Positions 1-43,480 of a DNA stretch of 64,000 bases are shown one piece after another (the stretch's first letter is position 1; each line of letters begins with the position of its first letter). A program made the translations under genes and the position numbers. The notes beneath the pieces are model-generated. The model ran no database searches. It was given only the letters and a program-made list of their open reading frames with translations, and had not been told where the DNA came from. The stretch lies in assembly GCF_058153355.1 (NCBI RefSeq), contig NZ_CM177019.1; one strand, written 5' to 3'.

Positions 1-116
1 ATAATTGCCATCAATATTTTATCGCGCTGCGTTTGATCTTCGGGTAGATGTTCCGCTAACAGGAACGCGCCCCTCGAGGTTCCACCTCGCATCATCACGC
101 AGGGTATTTTTTTCAT
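1..116 (-). CDS. ybhH: PrpF-family isomerase-like protein YbhH, N-terminal 38 codons only (gene runs off window start)
   Basis: Reverse complement of 1-116 translates from ATG (complement of 114-116) as MKKIPCVMMRGGTSRGAFLLAEHLPEDQTQRDKILMAI; RGGTS motif; divergent from ybhD as in recalled K-12 order. Confidence 0.6.
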   Translation of the reverse strand, partial: MKKIPCVMMRGGTSRGAFLLAEHLPEDQTQRDKILMAI

Positions 117-299
117 AATAATGCCCTCAATTTAAAAACATAACTTATTGCGATATGGTTACATTAAGGGCAAAGCATCTCTAATGACTTTAGCTCAACG
201 ATTAATAACATTTTTTCATTAATTTAAGTTGGCTAAATGCAGTTAAAATTTTTAACGGCCTGTCATCCAAAATCGTCGCATCCATTTTTCGGAGTAATA

Positions 300-1252
300 A
301 TGAAGCATGAATTATCAAGTATGAAGGCATTTGTCATACTGGCAGAGTCCAGTTCATTTAACAATGCTGCTAAATTACTCAATATTACGCAACCTGCATT
401 AACGCGAAGAATAAAAAAATGGAAGAGGATTTACATATTCAACTATTTGAGCGTACAACTCGCAAGGTTATGTTAACAAAAGCAGGAAAAAGGTTGCTCC
501 CGGAGGCGCGGGAATTAATAAAGAAATTCGATGAAACGCTTTTTAATATTCGCGATATGAATGCTTATCATCGTGGTATGGTGACGTTAGCGTGTATTCC
601 GACCGCAGTATTTTATTTTTTACCACTGGCAATCGGTAAATTTAATGAGCTGTATCCCAATATTAAAGTGCGGATTCTGGAACAAGGCACGAATAATTGC
701 ATGGAATCGGTGCTGTGTAACGAATCAGACTTTGGCATAAACATGAACAACGTCACAAATTCATCCATTGATTTTACCCCACTGGTCAACGAGCCGTTCG
801 TGCTGGCCTGTCGGCGTGACCATCCATTGGCCAAAAAGCAGCTTGTAGAATGGCAGGAGTTAGTGGGTTACAAAATGATTGGCGTACGCTCCTCCAGCGG
901 CAACCGACTTTTGATAGAACAACAGCTGGCCGACAAGCCCTGGAAGCTGGACTGGTTTTACGAAGTGCGTCATCTTTCGACGTCATTAGGACTGGTGGAG
1001 GCGGGACTGGGGATTTCGGCGCTTCCTGGTCTGGCAATGCCCCATGCACCCTATTCTTCGATTATTGGTATCCCGCTGGTGGAACCGGTTATACGTCGGA
1101 CATTGGGGATTATTCGCCGCAAAGATGCCGTGCTTTCTCCGGCTGCAGAACGCTTTTTTGCCTTGCTGATTAATTTATGGACCGACGATAAAGACAACTT
1201 GTGGACCAATATCGTCGAACGCCAGAGACATGCGTTACAGGAAATGGGGTAA
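300..1252 (+). pseudogene. ybhD: LysR-family transcriptional regulator YbhD, apparently frameshifted at an A7 homopolymer (413-419)
   Basis: HTH segment MKHELSSMKAFVILAESSSFNNAAKLLNITQPALTRRIKK from ATG 300 is in a different frame from the 277-aa substrate-domain ORF 419..1252 (MEEDLHIQLFERTTRK...); one extra A in the run would give a contiguous ~317-aa LysR protein. Confidence 0.7.
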
Positions 1253-8557: not shown

Positions 8558-8725
8558 GTCGGTAATGCTGACTGTACCGGAGGCGGCCTAAGCGCCCTCT
8601 CCGGCCTACAGTTCGACGCATCCAGGCATGAAACCGCGTCTTTTTTTTCAGATAAAAAGCGCAATCATTCATAAAGCCGCTGTTTTATAATCACTTAATC
8701 GCGCATAAAAAACGGCTAAATTCCT

Positions 8726-19224: not shown

Positions 19225-19300
19225 TGGTGGGTCGTGCAGGATTCGAACCTGCGACCAATTGATTAAAAGTCAACTGCTCTACCAACTGAGCTAACGACCC
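19225..19300 (-). tRNA. tRNA-Lys (anticodon UUU)
   Basis: 76-nt exact reverse-complement match to the E. coli tRNA-Lys sequence as recalled, CCA encoded. Confidence 0.9.
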
Positions 19301-19348
19301 ATACGGGTGTTACCTGAATGATTTCTACTCGGGACCAATCTTTAATAT

Positions 19349-19419
19349 TGGTGGATCGTGCAGGATGACTCGCTTCGCTCGCCCTACGGGCCGTTGCTGG
19401 CGCAACGTTATCCTTCACG
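19349..19419 (-). repeat. spacer repeat unit beginning with a tRNA-Lys 3'-end mimic (one mismatch)
   Basis: tggtggatcgtgcagga + tgactcgcttcgctcgccctacgggccgttgctggcgcaacgttatccttcacg; near-identical to the copy at 19841-19913. Confidence 0.7.
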
Positions 19420-19446
19420 CTTAACATCTGAGTTTGATGTTAAAAC

Positions 19447-19522
19447 TGGTGGGTCGTGCAGGATTCGAACCTGCGACCAATTGATTAAAAGTCAACTGCT
19501 CTACCAACTGAGCTAACGACCC
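19447..19522 (-). tRNA. tRNA-Lys (anticodon UUU)
   Basis: 76-nt exact match to the tRNA-Lys copy at 19225-19300. Confidence 0.9.
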
Positions 19523-19525
19523 GAG

Positions 19526-19601
19526 TGGTGGGTGATGACGGGATCGAACCGCCGACCCCCTCCTTGTAAGGGAGGTGCTCTCCCAGCTGAGCTAATCACC
19601 C
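19526..19601 (-). tRNA. tRNA-Val (anticodon UAC)
   Basis: 76-nt reverse-complement match to E. coli tRNA-Val(UAC) as recalled; 3-nt spacer to the adjacent tRNA-Lys. Confidence 0.9.
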
Positions 19602-19651
19602 GATACTGCGCTGGATACTACAAACTACTTCCACCGAACCCACCGCATTAG

Positions 19652-19727
19652 TGGTGGGTCGTGCAGGATTCGAACCTGCGACCAATTGATTAAAAGTCAA
19701 CTGCTCTACCAACTGAGCTAACGACCC
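19652..19727 (-). tRNA. tRNA-Lys (anticodon UUU)
   Basis: 76-nt exact match to the other tRNA-Lys copies. Confidence 0.9.
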
Positions 19728-19729
19728 GG

Positions 19730-19805
19730 TGGTGGGTGATGACGGGATCGAACCGCCGACCCCCTCCTTGTAAGGGAGGTGCTCTCCCAGCTGAGCTAAT
19801 CACCC
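19730..19805 (-). tRNA. tRNA-Val (anticodon UAC)
   Basis: 76-nt match identical to copy at 19526-19601; 2-nt spacer to tRNA-Lys. Confidence 0.9.
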
Positions 19806-19840
19806 GATACTACGCTGGATACTACAACTAACTAGGTTAG

Positions 19841-19913
19841 TGGTGGGTCGTGCAGGATGACTCGACTTCGTCTCGCCCTTCGGGCCGTTGCTGACGCAAC
19901 GTTATCCTTCACG
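19841..19913 (-). repeat. spacer repeat unit beginning with an exact tRNA-Lys 3'-end mimic
   Basis: tggtgggtcgtgcagga + tgactcgacttcgtctcgcccttcgggccgttgctgacgcaacgttatccttcacg. Confidence 0.7.
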
Positions 19914-19940
19914 TTTTACTACCGCTTCCACCTTAGCGAT

Positions 19941-20016
19941 TGGTGGGTCGTGCAGGATTCGAACCTGCGACCAATTGATTAAAAGTCAACTGCTCTACCA
20001 ACTGAGCTAACGACCC
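19941..20016 (-). tRNA. lysT: tRNA-Lys (anticodon UUU), first gene of the array
   Basis: 76-nt exact match; promoter-proximal position. Confidence 0.85.
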
Positions 20017-29115: not shown

Positions 29116-29916
29116 GACTCCTTGCTCATCGCATGAAGACTCCGAGAGTGAACCCCGTTAGAAAGGGTCACACGCATGCCCCAATACAAAATTATTTGCT
29201 CGCCTCTATCGTTGCCATTTCATCAAAAGAGGAAAAGACAATGATAAAAAAGTTACAAACATGTTAATGAATAAACCAAATTGATCCCGTAATTATATTA
29301 CGCCGCAAAATCCTTACAATAAACAGGTTTTTATTGAGCAAATTTGCATTTTTCGACAGTGATCAATTTATAGCGAAATTGTCACGATCTCACCAATTTG
29401 ATCTACGACAATTTATCGTGTTTTGCAGATTTTTTTCAAGAATTAAAAATTGATTTATATCAAAACCAACCAAATGTGTTAATTATGTATAAACCATAGA
29501 TCATTGGTGATTTTATTGTTAATTTATTGTGAAATGTTTATGCAACACAATTATTACAATGAAAAGGTATAGATAAAAAACCAGTGTTTTATTTAACAGA
29601 ACCGCCTTATCCACTTTTTATAATACCAATTGATTAGAGTAGCCAATTTGTTGCTATTTTACATAACATATTTTTATCAAAGTTAATTGATTGTTGCCTT
29701 TATGAGCATCGCCGTAAGACCGCCATGTTATTGTTTCATTTGTAATAATCACCAATAAGTATCGATGAGAGAGATATCGCTTAACAGAGGCGACTATGTC
29801 TGCATGAACACAGGCAACTTTCGCCTGATAAACGAAAAATGAGCGATTTTTGCAAGTTAGTTTTTCTATAGCCGGGTACGCTGAGCGCCTCGCTTGATTA
29901 CAATGAGGTTGCTGCC
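29116..29916. promoter_or_regulatory. long AT-rich cydAB control region
   Basis: 801-bp AT-rich non-coding region upstream of cydA with multiple TTGAT-type half-sites. Confidence 0.6.
29450..29463. promoter_or_regulatory. FNR-type binding site
   Basis: Perfect TTGAT-TTAT-ATCAA palindrome about 340 bp upstream of cydA start. Confidence 0.6.
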
Positions 29917-30861
29917 ATGGGTCTTGATAATATAGGTTCTGTTGTCAATCGCTTCTCTGGTTGGCCATCAAATGATCCTCTAAAAACAGATAACGAATCA
30001 ATGACATCACCCGTGACTGTGCAGGTAATAAAGTTGATTGCCGCCATCCTTGACCCACATCGGATAGTCGTTGGTATCGATACACTTTACACAACGCAGC
30101 GCAAAACATTTACCTCAGAGGGTCAACAGCTCATTGAATCAGCATTGCAAACACTTCATGTGATGAATTTAAATAACCTGGAAACAAATCTCGATGAGGA
30201 AGGTCACTATCTGGCTTTTGGATATAACGTTGACACTCCTGACAGAATAACCGTTTCTGCTTATAATGAAAAAAAACCTTTCTGTTATGGCCAATGTCTT
30301 TTAATACAGGATGAAGAACCAGATTTATTTAACCTGGTAAAAATTAAAACCTTTGAAGCCAGGCATAATTATGTTTCTAAATTGATGAGCGATCCGGAAT
30401 TTATGTTTAAATTCAGTTATAGCGCCCAACAAAATAGATTAGAACCTCATCTTCTGGTTCCCACTTATTTCCCTCTGAAAACAAACCAACCGGTTACGCT
30501 AGAGGATGTACTGATACTTTATCGTTTCTTTAAAATGAATGGCGATTTTAATATATTAACATCAGATGAATACATGAGTATCATGACACCTCTGATGAAG
30601 TGTGAGCGTAGTGTCCACGACCATAACAGGTATGTGACGGGCAAAGATGCTCTTCTTCTGGACAATCCTCCGTCTGGTAACCAGATATATTTCCATATTT
30701 CCCCTGACGAATCAGCAACACTTGTCCTTTATTTTTCAGACAATAACCTTGAATCCTTCGTCTTTGAAAATGATATTCCGAGCCAGTATCGACATTTCAA
30801 AATGTTTACCAATTTAGCACTAGTTATTGATCAGTTAACCGACGCCAATCAAATACTTTAA
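29917..30861 (+). CDS. hypothetical protein, 314 aa, no family recognised
   Basis: Long ORF in AT-rich DNA with GAGG 9 nt upstream of ATG; no signal peptide, no TM segment and no motif I recognise; true start may be an internal Met. Confidence 0.5.
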   Translation: MGLDNIGSVVNRFSGWPSNDPLKTDNESMTSPVTVQVIKLIAAILDPHRIVVGIDTLYTTQRKTFTSEGQQLIESALQTLHVMNLNNLETNLDEEGHYLAFGYNVDTPDRITVSAYNEKKPFCYGQCLLIQDEEPDLFNLVKIKTFEARHNYVSKLMSDPEFMFKFSYSAQQNRLEPHLLVPTYFPLKTNQPVTLEDVLILYRFFKMNGDFNILTSDEYMSIMTPLMKCERSVHDHNRYVTGKDALLLDNPPSGNQIYFHISPDESATLVLYFSDNNLESFVFENDIPSQYRHFKMFTNLALVIDQLTDANQIL

Positions 30862-30942
30862 TTTTCTATATATCCCCTATGGTAAATATTACTAAACAAT
30901 ACCTGGGGATTAATTTTTATTACTCACGGAAAGATTTAAATA

Positions 30943-31365
30943 ATGATACCATCTCAGATTTCTTTCAATACTCTTCCTGTCAATGCAACATACGCTTCAG
31001 AGACAACAGTTGACACACAAAAATTCTCTGACATCCTCTACTCTGCGGGGTGTTCCCTAAAGGATCTGGCTTATCTGAGCAGATGTCTGGCATCAATACA
31101 TCCGACTATCGCCAAAAACATTTATGAAACAGAAAATCTCAGCGTTCAAAAATTACTGCATATTGATTGCCGTAGTACAAATGAAATCAAGATAAATATC
31201 TTTTTTGGTCAGCAACGAGAAGGATTAATTGAAATTAGTTCTGACACAGTCATTTTTTCGATACTGTCTTCATTGATTGACTCAGCTATTTCTGAACATC
31301 GACATCAAATCACCGTTAACGATTCAAATAATTCTGAACTATTTTATGAGGATTATACTGATTAA
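30943..31365 (+). CDS. hypothetical protein, 140 aa, acidic C-terminus
   Basis: ORF 81 bp downstream of the 314-aa ORF, same strand and same AT-rich composition; ends ...ELFYEDYTD. Confidence 0.45.
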   Translation: MIPSQISFNTLPVNATYASETTVDTQKFSDILYSAGCSLKDLAYLSRCLASIHPTIAKNIYETENLSVQKLLHIDCRSTNEIKINIFFGQQREGLIEISSDTVIFSILSSLIDSAISEHRHQITVNDSNNSELFYEDYTD

Positions 31366-31908
31366 ATCCACTCTGTGCGAACCTGTCCTGCATTTATGCC
31401 AGAAGTATTAGAATCTTTGCTTAACGTTACTCATACAGTAGCACCTTCATGTACTTCTCTTTTTTACGAAAAATCAAAAGAGCTAACAAAGGTCATTCTT
31501 CGCATGGATCATTAATTATTTGTTATTTTCAACATTATTTTTACATTAAGCATATATGAATTGCAGTGAAATTCGACTTAACTTTTATGAAATGCATTTA
31601 CTCATGGCTAAAAAATCTCCCCAAAATGCAAATTAGAAGTTGATCACAATTATCTCAATACATCAAATCAAGTTAATTTTAAAAATTTAACATTCATGAC
31701 ATTAGTTGACGTAACACGCTGAATTAAAATGAGAATTTAAAAACACACTTTAAACAATCATTTCCCGAAAGACATTTTGAAAATAGATCAATTGCAACAT
31801 TACGGTCAGATAAAGACACTCCTCTGATATTAAACCTGTGCCGTTATGAACGGCCATAAATACGACGTGTGTAACTTAATTTACTCTCTGTCTTACAAAG
31901 GATTACCC

Positions 31909-32358
31909 ATGAAGAAAGCAACACTTGTGATTGGCGTTATTGGCGCGGACTGCCATGCAGTAGGCAATAAAGTTCTGGACCGCGTTTTTAGCAACCATGA
32001 CTTCAGAGTCATTAATCTGGGCGTAATGGTCAGCCAGGACGAATATATTGATGCTGCCATTGAAACTGGCGCTGACGCGATTGTCGTCTCCTCTATCTAT
32101 GGGCATGGCGATATCGATTGTCTGGGCATGCGCGAACGCTGCATCGAGCGTGGGCTGGGTAACATCATGCTCTATGTGGGCGGTAACCTGGTGGTCGGAA
32201 AACATGACTTCGCTGACGTGGAAACCAAGTTCAAAGAGATGGGATTTGATCGCGTCTTTTCCCCAAGTCATGACTTAGAAGATGTTTGTCAGCTGATGGC
32301 CCACGATATCACCCAACGTCATGACGTTGATACTCGCATTCTTGAAGAGGCAATCTGA
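31909..32358 (+). CDS. glutamate mutase sigma (S) subunit, B12-binding
   Basis: ORF 31846..32358; start at ATG 31909 (AAGGA 8 nt upstream); [24 protein letters not shown]... with the DxHxxG cobalamin-binding motif (DCHAVG). Confidence 0.85.
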
Positions 32359-33746
32359 TGCAAATCGTCTCTGTCGATATTGGATCGACGTGGACCAAAG
32401 CAGCCCTCTTCACCCGGGAGGGGGACGCGTTAACGTTGGTTAACCACGTTCTGACCCCAACCACCACCCATCATCTGGCGAAAGGGTTTTTCTCCAGCCT
32501 GGACCAGGTGTTAAACGTAGATGATGCCCTCCCCCTGTTAAACAGTGGTGAGGTTGCATTGAAGTATTCCTCCTCTGCCGAAGGTGGGCTGGCGGTTGCC
32601 GCAATGGGATTGGTGCCTTCTATCACCCTGGAAACCGCGAAAGTAACCGCTCACTCTGCGGGTGCTAAAATTGCGCAATATTACGCCTACAAGCTGAACC
32701 GCCGTGATATCCAGGCACTGGAAGAAACGCAGCCCGATATTCTCTTGTTCACCGGCGGCACCGACGGCGGAGAAGAAAGCTACGGACTGAATAACGCCCG
32801 TGTGCTGGCAGAATCCAAACTCGACTGCGCCATTATTTATGCCGGAAACCGGGATATTCAGGATAAGGTGCAGGAGATCCTCGGGCATAAAGACCTGACC
32901 ATCGTCGACAACGTTCTGCCCGATCTTGACCATCCGAACCCTTTAGCTGCACGCCAGGCTATCTGCGACATATTCCTTAAACGCATCGTTAAAGGGAAAG
33001 GGCTGGATGTCATTGTTGATAAAACAGGCGAAGAACCAATGCCGACACCATGGACGGTCTTTGAACTGGTTAAGGCAATCAGTAACGTCGATCACAGCTG
33101 GAAAGAGTTCATGCTGATCGACATGGGCGGCGCAACCACCGATGTCTATTCCGCCTGTGCCAACACGCTCTCGCCCGACACTGTTTTACATGGCGTACCG
33201 GAACCCTTCGTAAAACGGACGGTGGAAGGCGATCTGGGAATGCGCGTCTCGGCAATGGTTGTTGGTGAAAGTGCGAAAGAGTTAGTCAGTGTGAATTTTG
33301 CTCAGCAACCCGCACAGTTGGACGCTTTTTATCATTACCTCCGTCATCTAGTCGCTCATCCCGACTACTTACCCGCGAATGCAGATGAAAAATATTTCGA
33401 TACCGTCCTGGCCGGACTGTGTGTGGGTTATGCCACCGAAAGACATGCGGGCACCAAAAAAGAGGTCTGCACCTGCGTCGGCAATGTCGATTTACAGATG
33501 GGACGTGATCTGACAACCGTGCGTAAAGTCGTGGGTTCCGGCGGATGGCTCTCACGTGCCAGTCAGTTCGATATGCATCACTGGTTGAAATACCGCGAGT
33601 TAAACGACGACGGTAAACGCATTCTCTTACCGACCGAATTTGAATATTACCGCGATTACCGGGGGCTATTACCACTGCTGGCAAACGTCGCCAGAGTCGA
33701 TCCGCTGGCCGCCGCGCGCACCAGTATTCAATGCTTAACCCTATAA
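32358..33746 (+). CDS. glutamate mutase L component (ASKHA-fold putative reactivase/chaperone)
   Basis: 462-aa ORF with TGATG overlap to the S-subunit gene; N-terminal [18 protein letters not shown] actin-like ATPase motif; sits between S and E genes. Confidence 0.75.
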   Translation: MQIVSVDIGSTWTKAALFTREGDALTLVNHVLTPTTTHHLAKGFFSSLDQVLNVDDALPLLNSGEVALKYSSSAEGGLAVAAMGLVPSITLETAKVTAHSAGAKIAQYYAYKLNRRDIQALEETQPDILLFTGGTDGGEESYGLNNARVLAESKLDCAIIYAGNRDIQDKVQEILGHKDLTIVDNVLPDLDHPNPLAARQAICDIFLKRIVKGKGLDVIVDKTGEEPMPTPWTVFELVKAISNVDHSWKEFMLIDMGGATTDVYSACANTLSPDTVLHGVPEPFVKRTVEGDLGMRVSAMVVGESAKELVSVNFAQQPAQLDAFYHYLRHLVAHPDYLPANADEKYFDTVLAGLCVGYATERHAGTKKEVCTCVGNVDLQMGRDLTTVRKVVGSGGWLSRASQFDMHHWLKYRELNDDGKRILLPTEFEYYRDYRGLLPLLANVARVDPLAAARTSIQCLTL

Positions 33747-33764
33747 CAATTAAGGCTGCAATCA

Positions 33765-35210
33765 ATGGAACTTCGAAATAAGAAATTAACCCATGACGAA
33801 TTCATGACCGAGCGGCAACAGGTATTGAAAACCTGGGAAACCGGCAAGGATGTTGAAAACTTTGAAGATGGCGTTAAATACCAACAAACCATTCCTGAGC
33901 ATAAACGCTTCTCTCATGCCCTGCTGAAAGCAGACAAGGAAGGTAAAACCCTTAGCCAACCGCGCGCAGGCGTGGCGCTGATGGACGAACACATCGAACT
34001 ACTGAAAACACTACAAGAAGAGTGCGATCTGCTGCCGAGCACTATCGATGCATATACCCGTCTGAATCGGTACGAAGAAGCGGCTGTAGGGATTAAAAAA
34101 TCCATCGAAGCCAGAACCTCTAAACTGAACGGTTTACCGGTAGTTAACCACGGCGTCGCAGCTTGCCGTCGCCTCACCGAAACTCTGCAAAAACCGCTAC
34201 AGATCCGCCACGGCACGCCAGATGCGCGTCTGCTGGCTGAAATCTCGATGGCCAGCGGCTTTACCAGTTATGAAGGCGGCGGCATTTCCTACAATATTCC
34301 GTATGCCAAGCGCGTAACGCTGGAAAAATCGATCCGCGACTGGCAGTACTGCGACCGTTTAATGGGGATGTATGAAGAACACGGGATCCGCATCAACCGC
34401 GAACCGTTTGGCCCACTAACGGGTACGCTGATCCCGCCGTTTATCTCGCACTCTATCGCGATAATCGAAGGCTTGCTGGCACTGGAACAGGGTGTGAAAT
34501 CTATTACCGTTGGTTATGGACAGGTCGGCAGCCTGACGCAGGATGTCGCGGCGATCCAGTCTCTGCGTGAACTTGCACACGAATACTTTCAGAGCTATGG
34601 CTATACCGACTATGAATTAAGTACCGTATTTCACCAGTGGATGGGCGGCTTTCCGGAGGACGAATCGAAAGCGTTCGCCATTATCTCCTGGGGTGCTGCC
34701 GTCGCGGGGATGTCTGGTGCTACCAAAGTCATCACCAAAAGTCCGCACGAAGCCTGGGGCATCCCGACTGCTGCTGCCAACATTCAGGGGCTAAAAGCCT
34801 CCCGCCAGATGCTCAACATGGTCAACGAGCAGAAATTCCCGCCGTGCCCGGCGGTTGAACTGGAAATTGAACTGATTAAGAGCGAGGTTCGCGCTGTACT
34901 GAACAAAGTGTTCGAACTGGGTAATGGTGATATTGCGCGCGGTACGGTGCTGGCATTTGAAGCGGGCGTACTGGATGTACCGTTTGCCCCAGCCGCCTGC
35001 AACGCAGGCAAAATTCTTCCGGTCCGTGACAACACCGGCGCGATACGCGTACTGGAAGCCGGAGCCGTTCCATTGCCAAAAGATATTCTCGACCTCCACC
35101 ACGATTACGTTGCTGAACGCGCACGCTTTGAAGGACGCCAACCGACATTCCAGATGGTTGTAGATGACATCAATGCTGTATCCCACAGTAAATTAATAGG
35201 AAGACCATAA
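33765..35210 (+). CDS. glutamate mutase epsilon (E) catalytic subunit
   Basis: 481-aa ORF; size and position (S-L-E-methylaspartase order) match the clostridial glutamate mutase operon as recalled. Confidence 0.8.
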   Translation: MELRNKKLTHDEFMTERQQVLKTWETGKDVENFEDGVKYQQTIPEHKRFSHALLKADKEGKTLSQPRAGVALMDEHIELLKTLQEECDLLPSTIDAYTRLNRYEEAAVGIKKSIEARTSKLNGLPVVNHGVAACRRLTETLQKPLQIRHGTPDARLLAEISMASGFTSYEGGGISYNIPYAKRVTLEKSIRDWQYCDRLMGMYEEHGIRINREPFGPLTGTLIPPFISHSIAIIEGLLALEQGVKSITVGYGQVGSLTQDVAAIQSLRELAHEYFQSYGYTDYELSTVFHQWMGGFPEDESKAFAIISWGAAVAGMSGATKVITKSPHEAWGIPTAAANIQGLKASRQMLNMVNEQKFPPCPAVELEIELIKSEVRAVLNKVFELGNGDIARGTVLAFEAGVLDVPFAPAACNAGKILPVRDNTGAIRVLEAGAVPLPKDILDLHHDYVAERARFEGRQPTFQMVVDDINAVSHSKLIGRP

Positions 35211-36451
35211 TGAAAATAAAACAGGCCCTTTTCACCGCTGGCTACTCTTCATTCTATTTCGATGACCAGCAGGCGATAAAAAACGGAGCGGGTCACGACG
35301 GCTTTTTTTATACCGGAGAGCCGGTAACACAGGGGTTTAACGCCGTACGTCAGGCCGGGGAGTGCGTTTCGGTTCAGTTGATTCTGGAAAACGGTGCGGT
35401 CGCCGTAGGCGACTGTGCTGCCGTACAGTATTCCGGGGCAGGCGGTCGCGATCCACTGTTCCTCGCAGAGCACTTTATTCCGTTCCTCAACGACCATATC
35501 AAGCCATTACTGGTAGGCCGCGATGTGGATGCTTTCCTGCCGAATGCCCGTTTCTTCGACAAATTGCGTATTGACGGAAACTTGCTGCATACCGCCGTAC
35601 GTTACGGATTATCACAGGCGCTGCTTGATGCTACCGCGCTGGCAACCGGCCGTCTAAAAACTGAAGTGGTCTGTGATGAATGGCAGTTGCCACGCGTGGC
35701 GGAATCCATTCCATTATTTGGTCAGAGCGGCGACGATCGATATATCGCTGTCGATAAGATGATCCTTAAGGGCATCGACGTGCTACCTCATGCGCTGATT
35801 AATAACGTCGAAGAGAAACTGGGCTTTAAAGGAGAAAAACTGCGCGAATATGTCCGTTGGCTATCCGATCGGATTCTAAGCAAACGCACCAGCGCACGCT
35901 ACCACCCTACCCTGCACATCGATGTATACGGCACTATTGGTCTGATCTTCGATATGGATCCGCTTCGCTGTGCGCAATACATCGCCAGTCTGGAAAAAGA
36001 GGCGCAAGGCCTGCCGCTCTACATTGAGGGGCCGGTCGATGCCGGTAACAAGCCCGATCAAATTCGCCTGCTGACCGCGATTACCAAAGAGCTGACGCGC
36101 CTCGGTTCCGGCGTGAAAATTGTGGCCGATGAATGGTGTAACACCTACCAGGATATTGTTGATTTCACTGATGCCGCCAGTTGCCACATGGTGCAAATCA
36201 AAACCCCGGATCTGGGCAGTATTCACAACATCGTCGATGCAGTTCTTTATTGCAACAGCCACAGCATGGAAGCGTACCAGGGCGGCACCTGCAATGAAAC
36301 CGATGTCAGCGCCCGCACGTGTGTCCACGTCGCCCTTGCCGCTCGCCCTATGCGTATGCTGGTAAAACCGGGGATGGGCTTTGACGAAGGCCTCGATATC
36401 GTCTTCAACGAAATGAATCGTACTATCGCGCTGTTGCAGGCTAAGGATTAA
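35210..36451 (+). CDS. mal: 3-methylaspartate ammonia-lyase (methylaspartase)
   Basis: 413-aa ORF MKIKQALFTAGYSSFYFDDQQAIKNGAGHDGFFYTGEPVT...; strong resemblance to recalled clostridial/Citrobacter methylaspartase (same length; conserved HMVQIKTPDLG, NETN and KPGMG blocks); TAATG overlap with E subunit. Confidence 0.9.
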   Translation: MKIKQALFTAGYSSFYFDDQQAIKNGAGHDGFFYTGEPVTQGFNAVRQAGECVSVQLILENGAVAVGDCAAVQYSGAGGRDPLFLAEHFIPFLNDHIKPLLVGRDVDAFLPNARFFDKLRIDGNLLHTAVRYGLSQALLDATALATGRLKTEVVCDEWQLPRVAESIPLFGQSGDDRYIAVDKMILKGIDVLPHALINNVEEKLGFKGEKLREYVRWLSDRILSKRTSARYHPTLHIDVYGTIGLIFDMDPLRCAQYIASLEKEAQGLPLYIEGPVDAGNKPDQIRLLTAITKELTRLGSGVKIVADEWCNTYQDIVDFTDAASCHMVQIKTPDLGSIHNIVDAVLYCNSHSMEAYQGGTCNETDVSARTCVHVALAARPMRMLVKPGMGFDEGLDIVFNEMNRTIALLQAKD

Positions 36452-36454
36452 CAA

Positions 36455-37825
36455 ATGGCTCGTTCTTTTAAAGTCTTATCGCCAACGGCAATCCTCGGGT
36501 ATGGATTCCCGGAAGAGAGCTTCCGCAAAGCGATGGCAGAATCGCCCGATCTGATCGCCGTTGATGCAGGCTCTTCCGATCCTGGCCCCCACTACCTCGG
36601 GGCGGGCAAACCGTTTACCGATCGCGCAGGGGTCAAACGCGATCTACGCTATATGATCACCGCAGGCGTGCAAAATAATATACCGGTGGTGATCGGAACG
36701 GCCGGCGGTTCTGGTGCAGCTCCACACCTGGAGTGGTGCCGAGAAATAATTCATGAGATTGCCCGGGAAGAGCACCTCGCGTTCTCGATGGCGCTGATCC
36801 CGGCAGACGTTGACAAAGCCATCGTCCACCAGGCGCTGGATAACGGCAAAATCACGGCGCTGGATTTTGTCCCGCCGTTAACCCACGACGCGATTGACGA
36901 AAGTACGTATATCGTCGCGCAAATGGGCGTCGAACCCTTCCAGCAGGCGCTGAAAGAAGGCGCGCAAGTGGTGCTGGGCGGGCGCGCTTACGACCCGGCC
37001 TGCTTTGCTGCGCTACCGATCATGCAAGGCTTTGATGAAGGTCTGGCGCTGCATTGTGGGAAAATCCTTGAATGCGCGGCAATCGCCGCAACGCCCGGCT
37101 CAGGCTCTGACTGTGCGATGGGCATCATTGATGACAACGGCTTTACGCTGAAGACATTTAATCCGAAGCGTAAATTTACCGAAACGTCAGCGGCTGCACA
37201 CACACTGTATGAGAAATCCGATCCCTACTTCCTGCCAGGACCTGGCGGCGTGTTGAACCTGAAAGGTTGCACATTTAAAGCGATCAATGATGGCGAAGTT
37301 TACGTCAGCGGTTCTAAGCATGAAGAAACGCCCTATGCCCTGAAACTGGAAGGTGCGCGGCGGGTGGGTTTCCGCTGTTTGACCATCGCCGGAACGCGCG
37401 ACCCGATCATGATCGCCGGGATCGATAACATCATCGATGAAGTCAAAACCAGCGTTTCGCGTAATCTGTCCTTAGACGATGACAGCATTCGCATCAATTT
37501 CCACCTGTACGGCAAAAACGGGGTGATGGGTAACCATGAACCGATGCAAACTGCCGGGCATGAGCTGGGGATTGTCCTTGATGTAGTTGCACCGACCCAG
37601 GAAATTGCCAACAGCGTTTGCTCGCTGGTGCGCTCTACCATGCTGCACTACGGCTATGAAAACCGCATCGCTACCGCAGGCAACCTGGCGTTCCCGTTCT
37701 CCCCTTCTGATATCCAGGGCGGGCCGGTATACGAATTTTCCATATATCACCTGATTGAAGCCAACGACGCTCTGCGTTTTGATTTCCATATTGAACAGGT
37801 GACGCCAGAAGGAGTTCAGGCATGA
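36455..37825 (+). CDS. conserved protein of unknown function, DUF1446 (AtuA-like), 456 aa
   Basis: ORF starts 4 nt after methylaspartase stop; family assignment from memory of AtuA-like proteins, not from a search. Confidence 0.6.
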   Translation: MARSFKVLSPTAILGYGFPEESFRKAMAESPDLIAVDAGSSDPGPHYLGAGKPFTDRAGVKRDLRYMITAGVQNNIPVVIGTAGGSGAAPHLEWCREIIHEIAREEHLAFSMALIPADVDKAIVHQALDNGKITALDFVPPLTHDAIDESTYIVAQMGVEPFQQALKEGAQVVLGGRAYDPACFAALPIMQGFDEGLALHCGKILECAAIAATPGSGSDCAMGIIDDNGFTLKTFNPKRKFTETSAAAHTLYEKSDPYFLPGPGGVLNLKGCTFKAINDGEVYVSGSKHEETPYALKLEGARRVGFRCLTIAGTRDPIMIAGIDNIIDEVKTSVSRNLSLDDDSIRINFHLYGKNGVMGNHEPMQTAGHELGIVLDVVAPTQEIANSVCSLVRSTMLHYGYENRIATAGNLAFPFSPSDIQGGPVYEFSIYHLIEANDALRFDFHIEQVTPEGVQA

Positions 37826-38139
37826 AACAGTCAATTGTCTCACTGGCGCAAGTCATTCGTTCGAAAAATGCCGGACCTTACGAACTGGTTTTAGATATTT
37901 TATTTAAAACGAAAGAAAACTATGAGCGAGTAAAATCATCAGGGCAATTAACCCCAGAACTGATTGCGCGCTTATATCATGTTGAACCTGACTTTATTCA
38001 TCGTATTGTCTGGTTTGATCCTTCTAACGCAGTAAAAATTGTCATGCCACGAGATATTATCTCCGGGAATGTAGGTGACAATGATGTCTATGGCGCACAG
38101 CAACATGCACCTTTATTAAATATGAGTTTCGATTTGTAA
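37822..38139 (+). CDS. small conserved protein, DUF4387-like partner, 105 aa
   Basis: ATGA overlap with the preceding ORF; AT-rich; DUF1446/DUF4387 pairing is from memory. Confidence 0.5.
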   Translation: MKQSIVSLAQVIRSKNAGPYELVLDILFKTKENYERVKSSGQLTPELIARLYHVEPDFIHRIVWFDPSNAVKIVMPRDIISGNVGDNDVYGAQQHAPLLNMSFDL

Positions 38140-38225
38140 AAATCCGAACACTTTTAGCCAACTGACATCCCGTCACTTATTGCAGCTCAACACTTCAGCT
38201 ATTTGTAAGGTTGTTATAGCAGGTA

Positions 38226-38251
38226 GATGCCTGAATCTCTATTCAGGCATC
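38226..38251 (+). other. perfect 11-bp-stem hairpin between the DUF4387-like gene and the transporter
   Basis: gatgcctgaat-ctct-attcaggcatc; followed by pyrimidine-rich sequence but no clean T-run. Confidence 0.4.
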
Positions 38252-38299
38252 CACTTCTCCTGATTCTGATTTATCGCCGTGCACCTGATGGAGGAAAAA

Positions 38300-39580
38300 A
38301 TGAAGAAAATAAGTTTAACCACGATGATTCTTTTGGCGCTGGTACTTGGAATGATTATCGGCGTAGTGCTCAATAACACTGCTTCACCGGAAACAGCAAA
38401 ACTCTATGCGCAAGAAATATCGATATTCACGACGATTTTCTTACGACTGATAAAAATGATTATCGCTCCGTTAGTGGTCTCTACCCTGGTGGTAGGTATT
38501 GCTAAAATGGGCGATGCCAAAGCCCTTGGTCGTATTTTTTCTAAAACACTCTTTTTATTTATTTGCGCCTCATTGCTGTCAATTGCCTTAGGCTTGATAA
38601 CGGTAAATTTCTTCATGCCAGGCACAGGAATTAATTTTGTTGCACACGGTGCCGAAACCACCGGAGTGGTCGCGTCAGAACCCTTTACACTAAAAGTATT
38701 TATTTCGCATGCTTTCCCCACCAGCATTGTCGATGCCATGGCGCACAATGAAATTTTGCAAATCGTGGTGTTCTCAATTTTCCTCGGCTGTAGCCTGACG
38801 GCGATTGGTGAGAAAGGCAGCGCCATCGTTCACGCCTTAGATTCGCTGGCACATGCCATGTTAAAGCTCACTGGCTACGTCATGCTCTTCGCTCCCCTGA
38901 CCGTATTCGCCGCTATTTCAGCATTGATTGCTGAACGAGGACTGGCAGTTATGGTGAGCGCCGGGATCTTTATGGGTGAATTTTATTTCACCATGTTATT
39001 ACTTTGGGTGCTGCTTATCGGTCTGGCCATCGTTTATGTCGGCCCCTGCATCAGACGCCTGACCCGCGCCCTTTCAGAACCCGCCCTGCTGGCATTTACC
39101 ACATCCAGTTCTGAAGCTGCTTTTCCGGGAACGCTTGAAAAACTGGAGCAATTTGGCGTTTCCCCCAAAATTGCCAGCTTTGTCTTACCCATTGGCTACT
39201 CATTTAATCTCGTTGGATCAATGGCCTACTGCTCCTTCGCCACAGTTTTCATCGCCCAGGCCTGCAATATCCATTTATCCATCGGTGAGCAAATCACCAT
39301 GCTGTTGATCCTGATGTTGACCTCGAAAGGAATGGCTGGCGTACCACGCGCCTCAATGGTGGTTATCGCCGCCACGCTCAACCAGTTCAATATTCCGGAA
39401 GCGGGGCTGATCTTGCTGATGGGCGTTGATCCGTTCCTTGATATGGGGCGTTCCGCGACAAACGTCATGAGCAACGCAATGGGCGCTGCGATGGTGAGTC
39501 GGTGGGAAGGCGAACATTTCGGCGAGGGTTGTCGGGGTAAAGCATTAAAACCCAATGAATCGAACGTTGCTCTGCCCTGA
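38300..39580 (+). CDS. dicarboxylate/amino acid:cation symporter (DAACS)-family transporter
   Basis: ORF 38279..39580; start at ATG 38300 (GGAGG 5 nt upstream); polytopic membrane protein resembling GltP/DctA-type symporters. Confidence 0.7.
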   Translation: MKKISLTTMILLALVLGMIIGVVLNNTASPETAKLYAQEISIFTTIFLRLIKMIIAPLVVSTLVVGIAKMGDAKALGRIFSKTLFLFICASLLSIALGLITVNFFMPGTGINFVAHGAETTGVVASEPFTLKVFISHAFPTSIVDAMAHNEILQIVVFSIFLGCSLTAIGEKGSAIVHALDSLAHAMLKLTGYVMLFAPLTVFAAISALIAERGLAVMVSAGIFMGEFYFTMLLLWVLLIGLAIVYVGPCIRRLTRALSEPALLAFTTSSSEAAFPGTLEKLEQFGVSPKIASFVLPIGYSFNLVGSMAYCSFATVFIAQACNIHLSIGEQITMLLILMLTSKGMAGVPRASMVVIAATLNQFNIPEAGLILLMGVDPFLDMGRSATNVMSNAMGAAMVSRWEGEHFGEGCRGKALKPNESNVALP

Positions 39581-39687
39581 GGGAGATCTTAAGCAATCAG
39601 AAGCCAATGACTACGCATTTTTATAAGCCGGATCATGAAGTTAGACGGCAATTAAGTAACACTAACGTTTAAGGTGAAAAGTGAAAT

Positions 39688-41340
39688 ATGTCCAAACCAT
39701 TTATCTGGCAAGAACCGTTTCTACAAAATAAAGACGGTACAGAATATACATTAATTAGCGATCAACATATTACAGTAACGGAATTAGACGGCGAAGAAGT
39801 AATAAAAATCGCTCCTGAAGCATTAACGCTGCTTGCCCGGCAGGCATTTTATGAAGCCTCTTTTTTCTTACGTTCCGCTCATTTGCAACAGGTCGCCAGC
39901 ATTCTTAACGATCCGCAGGCCAGCAGTAATGATAAATACGTTGCGTTGCAGTTATTACGTAATGCTGAAGTCTCAGCAAAAGGGGTATTACCCAACTGTC
40001 AGGATACCGGCACCGCAACTATTGTTGCCAGTAAAGGGCAACAGATATGGACCGGAGGCAACGACGCCGAAGCCTTAAGCAAAGGCATTTACACCACTTT
40101 TCAGGAAAATAATTTGCGCTTTTCACAAAATGCGCCGCTGGATATGTATACCGAAGTCAATACGTACACCAATCTACCGGCGCAGATTGATATCAGCGCC
40201 GTCGCTGGTGATGAGTACCATTTTCTCTGTATTAATAAAGGGGGCGGCTCCGCCAATAAAGCCGCACTTTATCAGGAAACCAAATCCTTATTGCAACCAG
40301 AAAAACTGACCGCATTTTTAATCGAAAAAATGAAATCGCTGGGCACCGCTGCCTGCCCGCCTTACCACATCGCCTTTGTCGTCGGAGGGCTTTCAGCCGA
40401 TCAAACCTTAAAAGTTGCCAAGCTGGCCTCTACGAAATATTACGACAATTTGCCCACCAGCGGAAACGAGCAGGGACAAGCATTCCGTGATATTGAGCTG
40501 GAAAAAGCGTTGCTCGAAGCCAGTCAGCAATTTGGTATTGGTGCGCAATTTGGGGGTAAATATTTCGCTCATGATATTCGCGTCATTCGTCTGCCGCGTC
40601 ACGGTGGCTCCTGCCCGATAGCTATGGCGCTCTCCTGTTCTGCCGATCGCAATATCAAAGCAAAAATTAACAAGCATGGTATCTGGCTGGAAAAACTCGA
40701 ACACAATCCGGGGCAATATATTCCAGCCTCACTGCGGGAAGAAAATCACGCGCAACATGTACAGCTGGATCTAAACCGTCCGTTGCGTGACGTGATGCAG
40801 GATCTCGCCAGATTACCGGTAGGCACCCGCGTGTCGTTAAGTGGTCCCATCGTAGTGGCGCGCGATATCGCCCACGCCAAAATAAAAGCGCGGCTGGATA
40901 GCGGCGAATCGATGCCGGATTATCTGAAGCATCATATTGTCTATTACGCTGGCCCGGCGAAAACACCGGAGAACATGGCCTGCGGTTCACTGGGTCCAAC
41001 CACGGGCGGTCGAATGGACGGTTATGTCGAAACCTTCCAGGCGGCTGGCGGCAGTCTGGTAATGTTATCGAAAGGTAACCGCAGCCAGCAGGTCACCGAT
41101 GCCTGTCACAAACATGGCGGCTTCAATCTGGGAAGTATTGGCGGTGCAGCTGCGTTACTGGCGCAAGAATATGTCAAAAGTCTGCGTTGCCTGGAATACC
41201 CGGAGCTGGGTATGGAAGCGGTGTGGATGATGGAAGTGGAAAATCTGCCCGCATTCATCCTGGTCGATGATAAAGGCAATAATTTCTTTAGTCAGTTTGA
41301 GCAGCAACACCGCTGCGCCAGTTGCCCTGCGGGACATTAA
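39688..41340 (+). CDS. fumD: class I (Fe-S) fumarate hydratase paralog, probable mesaconase/fumarase
   Basis: 550-aa ORF colinear with E. coli FumA/FumB as recalled ([70 protein letters not shown]); symbol fumD is from memory of the O157:H7 mesaconase. Confidence 0.8.
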
Positions 41341-41349
41341 GGAAAATGA

Positions 41350-41952
41350 ATGGAAGCGCGAATTTCAACTGAACGGCATGTGCAGCGCCAGCAGAAATTG
41401 AAGGAACAGGTCGATACGCGCGTCGCGGCGGCGATAGAGAAAAAAGGGATCTTGATTGTTTTCACCGGCAACGGCAAAGGGAAATCCACTGCCGCGTTTG
41501 GTACTGTGACGCGCGCGGTGGGTCATGGCAAAACGGTGGGGGTTGCGCAGTACATCAAGGGGCAATGGGACAACGGCGAATACAACCTTCTCCAGCCGCT
41601 GGGGGTTGAGTTTCATATTATGGGAACCGGTTTTACCTGGGAGACTCAGAACCGGCAAGCGGATATCGACGCGGCGAAAGAGGTCTGGTCGGAAAGCAAA
41701 CGGATGCTGGCTGACAAGCGTTACGACTTAGTGGTGCTTGATGAGCTGACCTATATGCTGGCTTACCATTATCTGGACACCGAAGAAGTGATCACTTCTC
41801 TGCAAAACCGCCCGGCACAACAAAGTGTCATTGTCACCGGACGCAGTTGCCACAGTCAGATATTAAAAATGGCGGATACGGTCAGCGAAATCCGCCCCGT
41901 CAAACATGCTTTTGATAACGGCATTCAGGCGCAGCCGGGTATCGACTGGTAA
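41350..41952 (+). CDS. cob(I)alamin adenosyltransferase (CobA/BtuR family)
   Basis: 200-aa ORF with P-loop GNGKGKST and close resemblance to E. coli BtuR as recalled (VFTGNGKGK.TAAFGT.TRAVGHGK, LDELTYM, ELRPVKHAF). Confidence 0.85.
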   Translation: MEARISTERHVQRQQKLKEQVDTRVAAAIEKKGILIVFTGNGKGKSTAAFGTVTRAVGHGKTVGVAQYIKGQWDNGEYNLLQPLGVEFHIMGTGFTWETQNRQADIDAAKEVWSESKRMLADKRYDLVVLDELTYMLAYHYLDTEEVITSLQNRPAQQSVIVTGRSCHSQILKMADTVSEIRPVKHAFDNGIQAQPGIDW

Positions 41953-41985
41953 TAACTGCGCCTGGCATCCCGCCAGGCGCAGGTT

Positions 41986-42891
41986 TTACATCTCCTGCGG
42001 TACGACCGATTTCGCCAGCAACCATTCACGAAATTGCTGCAAGTGCGGCGAGTCAGACTTCTCTTCCTGCCACGTCATAATAAAACGATTACCGGTACGA
42101 ATAGGCACATCACAGGGAATCACCATATCGCCACTATCCAAATCATGTTGAATAGCGAACCGTGGTAACAGCGCCACGCCGAGATTAGAGCGCACGGCGG
42201 CAATCAGCATTGAAAGCAAATCGAAACGTGGTCCGTTATTGACCAGCGGACTGCTAACGCCAGATAAAGCAAACCACTCTTCCCAGCCAGTAATACGGGT
42301 GCTTTGATGCAGAAGTGGTAACTCAGTAAGCAGTTCTGCCACTGAAAGTTTTTGATCGGACATTGCAAGCAAACTGCCGCTGCATACCGGCAAAATCTCC
42401 TCTTCAAAGAGATATTCTACTTCCGCCCAGGGCGCGCAAAAATTTTCGCGCATAATGACAGCATCGTACTCCCGATTAAGAAAATCGCCGTTATTAGCTA
42501 AAGAATGAATATTAACAATAATATCGGGATGTAACTTTGTGAATTCATGTAAATTTGGGATTAACCAGTGGGTACTAAACGTAGGATTAACGGCAAGTTC
42601 AATAACCTGAACCGTAGGCTGCCAGGTCATAATCGTATTGGTATCGCGTTCCAGCTTATTTAATGTTTCTTTTACTATCCCCAGGTAATACTTCCCTGCA
42701 TCATTAAGAAAAATGCGTTTTTTAGAGTGTGAAAATAGCGGAGTATGTAAAAATTCCTCCAGCGCACTTACTTGTCTGAATACAGCACTTTGGGTTAACG
42801 CTAACTCCTCTGCCGCTCTGGTATAGCTTTCATGACGTGCGACGACCTCAAAAGTCACCAGCAGCTCCGTTTTAGGTATTTTTCCTCGCAT
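41986..42891 (-). CDS. LysR-family transcriptional regulator
   Basis: ORF 41986..42921; start set at internal Met (MRGKIPKTELLVTFEVVARHESYTRAAEELALTQSAVFRQVSALEE, LysR HTH); 42921 is an alternative start; convergent with the adenosyltransferase gene, divergent from the RtcB-like gene. Confidence 0.8.
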   Translation of the reverse strand: MRGKIPKTELLVTFEVVARHESYTRAAEELALTQSAVFRQVSALEEFLHTPLFSHSKKRIFLNDAGKYYLGIVKETLNKLERDTNTIMTWQPTVQVIELAVNPTFSTHWLIPNLHEFTKLHPDIIVNIHSLANNGDFLNREYDAVIMRENFCAPWAEVEYLFEEEILPVCSGSLLAMSDQKLSVAELLTELPLLHQSTRITGWEEWFALSGVSSPLVNNGPRFDLLSMLIAAVRSNLGVALLPRFAIQHDLDSGDMVIPCDVPIRTGNRFIMTWQEEKSDSPHLQQFREWLLAKSVVPQEM

Positions 42892-43480
42892 AATGCCGTC
42901 CGTGAAAAAATAACAATTCAAAAATTATTTTATAAAAAACAGTAGCACTAATGAATATCATAATTCAAATAAACAAACCAGTCAGCTATATGTCTAACCA
43001 GGAAAATAAAGTGACAATAATCCTAAAACAGGAATTTCACCTCAGTTATCCGCATGCAATACTTTAAAGCTATTATTGCAAGAATATTATTCATATACAT
43101 GAATATACTCTAAATAAGTCAAGTTGCAGGAAGGGAACAAATAATGAATTTCCAGAAGCTTACATAAGTAAGTGACCTGGGTGAGCGAACATCGATGCAG
43201 CACATGCAACTTGAATTATGACAAGTATACAATGATAAATTTATATACCCTATGTTATATATTATCTATGTCCGGTTAGATTGAATGAGTCATAGCCTTA
43301 AAAGACTTCACAAAAGATAATTCCTCTTTAACAATAAGCCAGATTTACCACTTGTAAAACTTGCTATCGCCACATACACTACGCGCGTTTTCTTTCCCTT
43401 TTGCTGGCTGCTGACCGGAAAGACAAAATTACCCTCGCAATACAGGGGGTTGATTAACGTCTATATTTCAGGACAGCGTT

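What the first reader, a model, noticed from the sequence alone, without database searches (positions are those of the whole stretch)
300..1252. Apparent frameshift in ybhD at an A7 homopolymer splits the LysR HTH from the effector domain
Seen in sequence: the N-terminal HTH (from ATG 300) and the 277-aa co-inducer-domain ORF (from 419) are in different frames that meet exactly at aaaaaaa (413-419). Restoring an 8th A yields one ~317-aa LysR protein, the length I recall for K-12 YbhD. This is either a sequencing or assembly error at a homopolymer, a genuine inactivating mutation, or a slippage-prone phase-variable site.
Basis: seen in the sequence. Interest (0 to 1): 0.4.

Follow-up and report, generated by a model that had tools for sequence, protein, structure and literature searches.

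The report
Frameshifted ybhD regulator gene (A8→A7)
One A has been lost from an eight-A run in the E. coli regulator gene ybhD, breaking its DNA-binding domain, which makes this an ordinary, very recent pseudogene at a small mutational hotspot where the same loss occurred independently in other strains.

Summary
Window 413-419 is A7. The ATG-300 frame carries YbhD codons 1-40, and the ATG-419 frame carries codons 41-317.

A near-identical relative (Logan DRR571058) has an intact 317-aa gene with A8 that differs from the window gene by that one A only.

K-12 and about 97% of 5,328 complete E. coli genomes have an interrupted run, AAAAAAGATG, not A8. A8 comes from a synonymous AAG→AAA change and is found in 134 genomes.

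A7 recurs in strain 536 (three assemblies) and in STEC299. RefSeq annotates ybhD as "frameshifted" in both.

The break lies inside the winged-helix DNA-binding domain (Pfam HTH_1, residues 6-64), not between the HTH and the effector domain.

It is probably a genuine mutation:
- An independent read-based assembly (SRR31441161) matches the window at 11,252 of 11,252 bases, including A7.
- No other coding sequence among 48 compared is frame-broken.

Phase variation and programmed recoding are not supported. Expected effect, inferred only: loss of YbhD and derepression of the divergent ybhH-ybhI genes. Low novelty.

The parts
1..116 (-). 5' end of ybhH (4-oxalomesaconate tautomerase homologue). 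It is the divergent neighbour of ybhD and its reported regulatory target. The gene runs off the left edge of the window.
   Evidence: [quoted passage not shown]
117..299 (.). ybhH-ybhD divergent intergenic (control) region.
201..223 (.). Perfect dyad ATTAAT-N11-ATTAAT (T-N11-A type). It is a candidate LysR-type operator for YbhD. This role is inferred and binding was not tested.
   Evidence: Pattern search. The dyad is identical in six other Escherichia representatives and near-identical (ATTAGT/ATTGAT-N11-ATTAAT) in several Citrobacter and in Edwardsiella.
300..419 (+). ybhD codons 1-40 in the original reading frame. This covers helices alpha-1 to alpha-3 of the winged HTH.
   Evidence: HTH_1 profile positions 2-37 of 60, E = 2.9e-10.
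413..419 (+). A7 run, the site of the one-base deletion. The parent allele has A8 and most E. coli have A6-G-A.
420..476 (+). Out-of-frame tail of the N-terminal fragment: 18 foreign codons plus a TAA stop at 474-476.
419..1252 (+). ybhD codons 41-317 plus the stop, now in the -1 frame relative to the start codon. This part holds the HTH wing, the linker helix and the LysR_substrate effector domain.
   Evidence: LysR_substrate, residues 51-251 of the ORF, E = 1.6e-46; only HTH_1 positions 37-60 remain, 22.1 bits against a cut-off of 26.6.
471..471 (+). T where most E. coli have C, giving Thr58Met. This marker is shared with the intact A8 alleles of EC42405 and L030-L034, which ties the window allele to an A8 parent.

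Best explanation
This is ybhD, a LysR-type transcription factor gene, inactivated by loss of one A:T pair from an A8 run.

How it arose. The ancestral Escherichia sequence at codons 38-41 is ATA AAA AAG ATG. In a minority lineage a synonymous AAG→AAA change at Lys40 joined the interrupted run into A8. Strand slippage during replication then removed one A, giving A7 in this strain's recent ancestry.

What it does to the protein. Translation from ATG 300 yields a 58-residue peptide with helices 1-3 of the winged HTH and 18 foreign residues. It lacks the wing, the linker helix and the effector domain. If the 277-aa ORF is translated at all from Met41, its product lacks the DNA-reading helices. 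Either way no DNA-binding YbhD is made.

Expected consequence. YbhD represses its divergent neighbours in K-12, so ybhH-ybhI should be constitutively derepressed. Both genes and the conserved operator-like dyad are intact.

What is shown: the indel, its A8 parent, the domain cut, recurrence in other strains and reproduction in an independent assembly. What is inferred: replication slippage as the mechanism, loss of function and derepression.
For: - Sequence and frames.
- The ancestral state is A6-G-A in K-12-type and nearest E. coli alleles and in E. albertii, E. whittamii and three other Escherichia species representatives.
- A8 occurs in 134 of 5,426 complete genomes, including CFT073, Nissle 1917 and ATCC 25922, where ybhD is annotated intact. 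It also occurs on the window-type allele in EC42405.
- The window gene equals the L030 (DRR571058) gene minus one A, with no other differences. The flanks are 99.93% identical.
- All five fetched carriers of the T58M protein have A8.
- The same A8→A7 step occurred elsewhere. Strain 536 equals the Nissle allele minus one A, with no SNPs in 3,055 nt. STEC299 differs from both by 7 SNPs, so its event is probably separate. RefSeq flags these genes as frameshifted.
- Frameshifted tracts are enriched on the A8 background: 4 of 138 records against 4 of about 5,190 on A6-G-A. Fisher p = 3e-5 by record and 0.009 when 536 is counted once.
- Evidence that it is genuine: the Logan contig from SRR31441161 matches the window at 11,252 of 11,252 nt with A7. 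Three contigs carry the exact 277-aa ORF. It is the only net frame-breaking indel in 48 CDS across 50 kb compared with WL297, although the window holds 12 runs of 7 or more bases.
- Domain cut. LTTR homology.
- Repressor role of YbhD: PMC9068703.
Against: - No read-level pile-up could be inspected. SRR31441161 may be the very read set behind the window assembly, so agreement rules out an assembler artefact but not a systematic homopolymer miscall on a long-read platform.
- STEC299 was seen in one assembly only and could be an error.
- Direct loss of the G from A6-G-A cannot be formally excluded, but the identical A8 relative makes it unnecessary.
- Loss of function and derepression of ybhHI were not measured. 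The regulatory evidence comes from one K-12 RNA-seq study.
Confidence: 0.85

Rival explanations
1. Sequencing or consensus error: the isolate really has A8 and an intact ybhD, and one A was dropped in base-calling or polishing of a homopolymer.
For: Homopolymers are the classic site of indel errors. The parent allele with A8 exists in near-identical relatives. A few single-assembly tract variants in the complete-genome set (A5GA in 1 genome, A7GA in 3) may themselves be errors.
Against: The independent Logan assembly of SRR31441161 gives A7 and is identical over 11,252 nt. Three contigs carry the same truncated ORF. No other coding homopolymer in the window is frame-broken compared with WL297. 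The same A7 state is reproduced in three separate assemblies of strain 536, made between 2006 and 2024, so A7 is a real biological state of this tract.
Confidence: 0.08
2. Phase-variable contingency locus: the A-run switches frequently and reversibly between A8 (on) and A7 (off), toggling YbhD and therefore ybhHI expression within populations.
For: The A8→A7 step recurs in at least two, and probably three, lineages. A7 and A8 states are both found among very close relatives, with 1 SNP in 2.75 kb between them. Frameshifts are enriched on the A8 background.
Against: Every repeated assembly of one strain agrees: 536 is A7 three times, and several Nissle 1917 and ATCC 25922 assemblies are all A8. 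No genome has A9. About 97% of E. coli, and all other Escherichia species examined, interrupt the run with G, so the tract is not conserved as a switch. By my own knowledge, A7/A8 is short compared with known poly-A/T or poly-G/C contingency tracts.
Confidence: 0.04
3. Recoding: the gene still works because a -1 ribosomal frameshift on A_AAA_AAA, or RNA-polymerase slippage that adds an A, restores the frame. Either event would yield exactly wild-type YbhD.
For: In the ATG-300 frame the run reads AT[A AAA AAA] TGG, an X_XXY_YYZ heptamer in register. A -1 shift there gives ...RRIKK-MEEDL..., which is the native sequence (read). Rescue of indels in A-runs by transcriptional slippage is documented (PMC1088944).
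Against: No downstream structure was found. Positions 405-500 fold no better than shuffled sequences (z = +0.71). No Shine-Dalgarno-like GGAGG lies upstream. In E. coli A_AAA_AAA is much less shift-prone than A_AAA_AAG (PMC5009743). Selection against transcriptional slippage becomes evident at about 9 nt in many genomes, which is longer than A7 (PMC1088944). The split arrangement is not conserved (4 of 5,328 records) and is very recent, with no other differences from the intact parent. At most a percent-level leak is expected.
Confidence: 0.03

Closest known systems
ybhD of E. coli 536 (ECP_RS03925) and STEC299 (CFI09_RS17535), annotated by RefSeq/PGAP as 'LysR family transcriptional regulator, frameshifted'
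   Same: Same gene, same nucleotide position and same A7 state derived from A8. The same 58-aa and 277-aa split results.
   Different: The allele background differs, with 21-22 nucleotide differences across the gene including sites 6-9 nt from the tract. The window event is therefore independent.
Intact YbhD (b0768) of E. coli K-12, a LysR-type regulator of the divergent ybhH-ybhI genes
   Same: After repair of one base the two proteins match at 315 of 317 residues. They share the divergent gene arrangement and the conserved intergenic dyad.
   Different: K-12 has AAA AAG at codons 39-40 (A6-G-A), Thr58 and Ile316. The window gene is frame-broken, so it should not make the regulator.
Homopolymer (simple-sequence-repeat) phase variation, for example poly-G/C or poly-A/T tracts in Neisseria, Haemophilus and Campylobacter contingency genes
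   Same: A frameshift in a mononucleotide run within the 5' part of a coding region switches the product off. The event recurs across lineages.
   Different: The tract is short, not conserved, and stable in repeated sequencing of the same strains. This is a mutational hotspot, not a maintained switch.
dnaX-type -1 programmed ribosomal frameshifting (A_AAA_AAG plus an upstream SD-like element and a downstream hairpin)
   Same: An in-register A-rich heptamer. The majority E. coli ybhD allele even has A_AAA_AAG in frame.
   Different: No stimulatory elements were found and the two-frame layout is not conserved.

Membership tests
LysR-type transcriptional regulator (YbhD orthologue) | N-terminal winged HTH (Pfam HTH_1, PF00126) of about 60 residues | tested here: met
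   The intact allele scores 75.7 bits over residues 6-64. In the window the domain is split: positions 2-37 lie in the ATG-300 frame and positions 37-60 in the ATG-419 frame.
LysR-type transcriptional regulator (YbhD orthologue) | C-terminal LysR_substrate (PF03466) effector-binding domain | tested here: met
   158.7 bits, E = 1.6e-46, on the 277-aa ORF. Full-length similarity to the solved LTTRs NtcB, OxyR and BenM.
LysR-type transcriptional regulator (YbhD orthologue) | Orthology: same position between ybhH and pgl, and near-identity to annotated ybhD | tested here: met
   The repaired protein is identical to WP_105287829.1.
LysR-type transcriptional regulator (YbhD orthologue) | Divergent target promoter carrying a T-N11-A dyad | tested here: inconclusive
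   A conserved ATTAAT-N11-ATTAAT dyad lies at 201-223. Binding was not tested.
Frameshifted pseudogene | Both sides of the break match one intact homologue, in two frames, with no compensating indel | tested here: met
   There is a single 1-nt gap in the 954-nt alignment.
Frameshifted pseudogene | The break is real, meaning it reproduces in independent data | tested here: inconclusive
   The Logan assembly of SRR31441161 reproduces A7. Whether that run is independent of the window's own isolate or read set is unknown. No read pile-up is available.
Frameshifted pseudogene | No functional product | not testable with these tools
   Inferred from the cut inside the DNA-binding domain.
Simple-sequence-repeat phase-variable (contingency) gene | Tract length differs between repeated isolates or assemblies of one strain, in both directions | tested here: not met
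   Strain 536 is A7 in three assemblies. Nissle 1917 and ATCC 25922 are A8 in all assemblies listed. No genome has A9.
Simple-sequence-repeat phase-variable (contingency) gene | The uninterrupted tract is conserved across the species | tested here: not met
   About 97% of E. coli, and all other Escherichia representatives examined, have A6-G-A.
Programmed -1 ribosomal frameshift site | Slippery heptamer X_XXY_YYZ in the zero frame | tested here: met
   A_AAA_AAA at 413-419, in register with ATG 300.
Programmed -1 ribosomal frameshift site | Downstream stimulatory RNA structure, or an upstream SD-like element | tested here: not met
   The fold of 405-500 gives z = +0.71, and 155 of 200 shuffles fold at least as well. 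No GGAGG-like element lies upstream.
Programmed -1 ribosomal frameshift site | The two-frame organisation is conserved among relatives | tested here: not met
   4 of 5,328 records have it, and the three fetched are flagged as pseudogenes.

The most novel reading that the evidence does not exclude
The synonymous AAG→AAA change that creates A8 may turn ybhD into a soft switch. On this reading, loss of one A is repeatedly selected because it derepresses the ybhH-ybhI genes (a putative tricarboxylate or malate-related pathway). The A7 allele would remain slightly leaky and reversible, because a -1 ribosomal shift, an extra A added by RNA polymerase, or a replication gain of one A each restores exactly the wild-type protein. 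The recurrent A7 alleles would then be adaptive on/off states rather than neutral decay.
Probability: 0.07. Interest if true: 0.4.

Novelty: already known. Interest (0 to 1): 0.15.

Why it matters
For annotation, the locus should be recorded as a frameshifted ybhD pseudogene, not as two genes or as a 277-aa "LysR substrate-binding protein".

For biology it is a small, clean example of a synonymous substitution (AAG→AAA) creating a longer homopolymer, which then raises the chance of a gene-killing frameshift. The step is seen independently in the window lineage, in uropathogenic strain 536, and probably in STEC299.

It also predicts a testable phenotype. The poorly understood ybhH-ybhI genes should be constitutively expressed in natural YbhD-null strains, which could help assign their function.

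Nothing here challenges current knowledge.

Tried and rejected
1. Two short queries (32-33 nt) meant to match only A7 or only A8 genomes returned nothing, probably because low-complexity masking removed the seed words. I replaced them with 55-57-nt queries and E-value cut-offs that admit only perfect matches.

2. An exact-pattern scan of metagenome contigs for the window's A7 allele found no matches, so it says nothing about prevalence.

3. A scan of GTDB species representatives did not recover the window's own genome. It did give the ancestral tract state in other Escherichia and in Citrobacter.

4. The 58-aa N-terminal product is not in the protein collection, so it could not be used to trace more carriers.

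5. I could not display the two other contigs that carry the 277-aa ORF, because the tool collapses similar places.

6. A Shigella origin was considered because of the pseudogene. I set it aside because the 64 kb is collinear with E. coli WL297 and EC42405 at about 98.3-98.7% identity and ybhD is the only broken gene. The exact strain remains unidentified, and no complete RefSeq E. coli genome exceeds 99.2% identity at this locus.

7. Direct deletion of the G from A6-G-A was my first reading. I dropped it once A8 alleles identical to the window gene were found.

Full report
**1. The observation**

The window reads ...ACGCGAAGAAT AAAAAAA TGGAAGAGG..., with the A-run at 413-419.
- From ATG 300 the frame gives 40 residues (MKHELSSM...QPALTRRIKK), then 18 foreign residues and TAA at 474-476.
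- From ATG 419, which shares its A with the last base of the run, a 277-aa ORF runs to 1252.
- Both halves are ybhD. The locus sits between ybhH (divergent, 1-116) and pgl (1293-2288), exactly as in annotated E. coli genomes.
- K-12-derived DH5alpha has a 954-nt, 317-aa ybhD.

**2. What the intact sequence looks like**

Aligning the window with its best E. coli matches and with K-12 shows that the common sequence is not A8. It is ATA AAA AAG ATG, that is A6-G-A. The representatives of E. albertii, E. whittamii and three other Escherichia lineages have the same sequence, so it is the ancestral state.

I took a census of the 5,328 complete RefSeq E. coli genomes that hold the locus, using perfect-match cut-offs.

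| Tract | Count | Notes |
|---|---|---|
| A8 | 134 genomes | CFT073, Nissle 1917, ABU 83972, ATCC 25922 and relatives; ybhD annotated intact |
| A7 | 4 records | three assemblies of strain 536, plus STEC299 |
| A5-G-A | 1 genome | |
| A7-G-A | 3 genomes | |
| A9 | 0 | |
| remainder (about 97%) | about 5,190 | by subtraction; A6-G-A in every sequence inspected |

RefSeq marks ybhD of 536 and STEC299 as "frameshifted" pseudogenes.

**3. Origin of the window allele**

- The window's closest complete-genome alleles (WL297, 2020CK-00188) carry A6-G-A. The window also has a private-looking C→T at 471, giving Thr58Met.
- A search for A8 on the window-type flanks found one complete genome, EC42405, which also has Met58.
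- Looking up that exact protein in public assemblies gave at least 24 contigs. All five loci fetched have A8.
- One of them, a Logan assembly of DRR571058 (L030), is 99.93% identical to the window over 2.75 kb. Its ybhD differs from the window's by the one missing A and nothing else.
- So the window allele is an A8 allele that lost one A very recently.

The route has two steps. A synonymous AAG→AAA change at Lys40 joins the run into A8, and then one A is deleted. The same route is seen in phylogroup-B2-type alleles:
- Strain 536 equals the Nissle 1917 sequence minus one A, with no SNPs in 3,055 nt.
- STEC299 is 7 SNPs away from both, so its A7 is probably a separate event.
- The window-type and B2-type alleles differ at 20 or more sites, including two sites 6-9 nt from the tract. 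The G→A change and the later deletion therefore each arose independently in the two backgrounds.

Frameshifted tracts are enriched on the A8 background. They make up 4 of 138 records there, against 4 of about 5,190 on A6-G-A. Fisher p is 3e-5 by record, or 0.009 if 536 is counted once. This is the behaviour of a modest mutational hotspot.

**4. Real mutation or error?**

I could not inspect reads. Three points favour a real mutation:
1. A contig assembled independently by Logan from run SRR31441161 is identical to the window at all 11,252 compared bases and has A7. Three contigs in that collection encode the exact 277-aa ORF.
2. Across 50 kb and 48 coding sequences compared with WL297, the ybhD indel is the only net frame-breaking one. 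The window contains 12 homopolymers of 7 or more bases, so the assembly is not riddled with homopolymer errors.
3. A7 at this tract is a reproducible biological state in strain 536, sequenced three times between 2006 and 2024.

The remaining doubt is that SRR31441161 may be the same isolate or read set as the window. I put sequencing error at about 8%.

**5. What the break does**

- Pfam places HTH_1 at residues 6-64 and LysR_substrate at residues 91-290 of intact YbhD.
- The N-terminal fragment keeps HTH_1 profile positions 2-37.
- The 277-aa ORF keeps HTH_1 positions 37-60 (22.1 bits, below the 26.6-bit cut-off) and the whole effector domain.
- The alignment to the solved LTTR NtcB puts the break at the end of the recognition helix (TQPALTRRIKKMEEDL against TQSTISRQIQSLEADL).
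- The frameshift therefore cuts through the winged HTH. It does not separate the HTH from the effector domain. Neither product should bind DNA. This is inference.

In K-12, deleting ybhD strongly upregulates the divergent ybhH, and ChIP-exo and RNA-seq assign ybhH and ybhI as targets (PMC9068703). The window strain's ybhH and ybhI are intact on the identical contig L035. A perfectly conserved ATTAAT-N11-ATTAAT dyad of the LTTR T-N11-A type sits at 201-223. The expected phenotype is constitutive ybhH-ybhI expression, which is inferred and untested.

**6. Rivals**

Phase variation:
- Every strain sequenced repeatedly keeps its tract length.
- No genome has A9.
- The uninterrupted run is a minority state rather than a conserved device.

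Recoding:
- In the ATG-300 frame the run is an in-register A_AAA_AAA heptamer. A -1 shift, or an extra A added by RNA polymerase, would recreate exactly the native protein.
- There is no downstream structure (z = +0.71) and no SD-like stimulator.
- A_AAA_AAA is much less shift-prone in E. coli than A_AAA_AAG (PMC5009743).
- Selection against transcriptional slippage becomes evident at about 9 nt in many genomes (PMC1088944).
- The arrangement is neither conserved nor old.
- A percent-level leak is possible. A programmed mechanism is unlikely.

**7. Comparison with the known, and verdict**

This is a member of the LysR family (a YbhD orthologue) carrying an ordinary homopolymer frameshift. The very same lesion is already annotated in E. 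coli 536 and STEC299. It is a real feature, correctly read by the first stage apart from two details: the domain boundary, and the K-12 tract being A6-G-A.

Its modest points of interest are the documented two-step path (a synonymous change potentiating a frameshift), its recurrence, and the availability of natural YbhD-null strains for studying ybhHI.

Novelty: already known. Interest: about 0.15.

Noticed in passing
window 201-223: A perfect dyad, ATTAAT-N11-ATTAAT (T-N11-A LysR-box type), lies in the ybhH-ybhD intergenic region. It is identical in six other Escherichia species representatives and nearly so in Citrobacter and Edwardsiella. It is a candidate YbhD operator.
   Followed up: partly
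L002 713-719 (K-12-type ybhD codons 38-40); corresponds to window 413-419: The majority E. coli allele, ATA AAA AAG ATG, carries the dnaX-type slippery heptamer A_AAA_AAG in the zero frame. A -1 shift there would stop after 10 codons. There is no sign that it is used.
   Followed up: no
L016-L021 about 2096-2135 (Citrobacter ybhD orthologues): Several Citrobacter species encode the same Ile-Lys-Lys-Met as ATT AAA AAA ATG. This is an in-frame A7 run, so the homopolymer state has arisen more than once in the family.
   Followed up: no
window 19225-20016: The tRNA array holds 4 tRNA-Lys(UUU) and 2 tRNA-Val(UAC). WL297 and EC42405 have 5 Lys and 2 Val, so this is a copy-number difference in a tandem tRNA cluster.
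   Followed up: partly
window about 29900-44900: A methylaspartate-pathway cluster (glmS, glmL, glmE, methylaspartate ammonia-lyase, AtuA-like gene, symporter, class I fumarate hydratase, cobO), a second LysR gene (41986-42921, minus strand) and rtcB lie between cydA and sucD. EC42405 has a hut operon where the window and WL297 have rtcB.
   Followed up: partly
window 32480-32487: Compared with WL297, glmL has a +1 and a -1 indel 7 nt apart. The two compensate, so only about two codons change and the frame is kept.
   Followed up: no
window 47060-47256: REP/BIME-like palindromic repeats (copies of GCCTGATAAGACGCG...CGTCGCATCAGGC) lie between sucC and sucB. They add about 130 nt compared with WL297.
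   Followed up: no
window 8641-8648: The intergenic T8 run between modF and galE is T6 in WL297. This is a second homopolymer length polymorphism, but outside coding sequence.
   Followed up: no
L026 (NZ_JAHZMP010000124.1, 509 nt): A 509-nt contig with coverage 1.8 in a Terrisporobacter mayombei assembly is 98% identical to E. coli ybhD. This is almost certainly contamination of that assembly.
   Followed up: no
E. coli genome hits H181-H184: Four complete genomes carry other tract variants on the A6-G-A background: A5-G-A in CM IVRI KOL-1, and A7-G-A in 1919D62, XYEH3934 and CUWW10. Whether these are real frameshifts or assembly errors was not examined.
   Followed up: no
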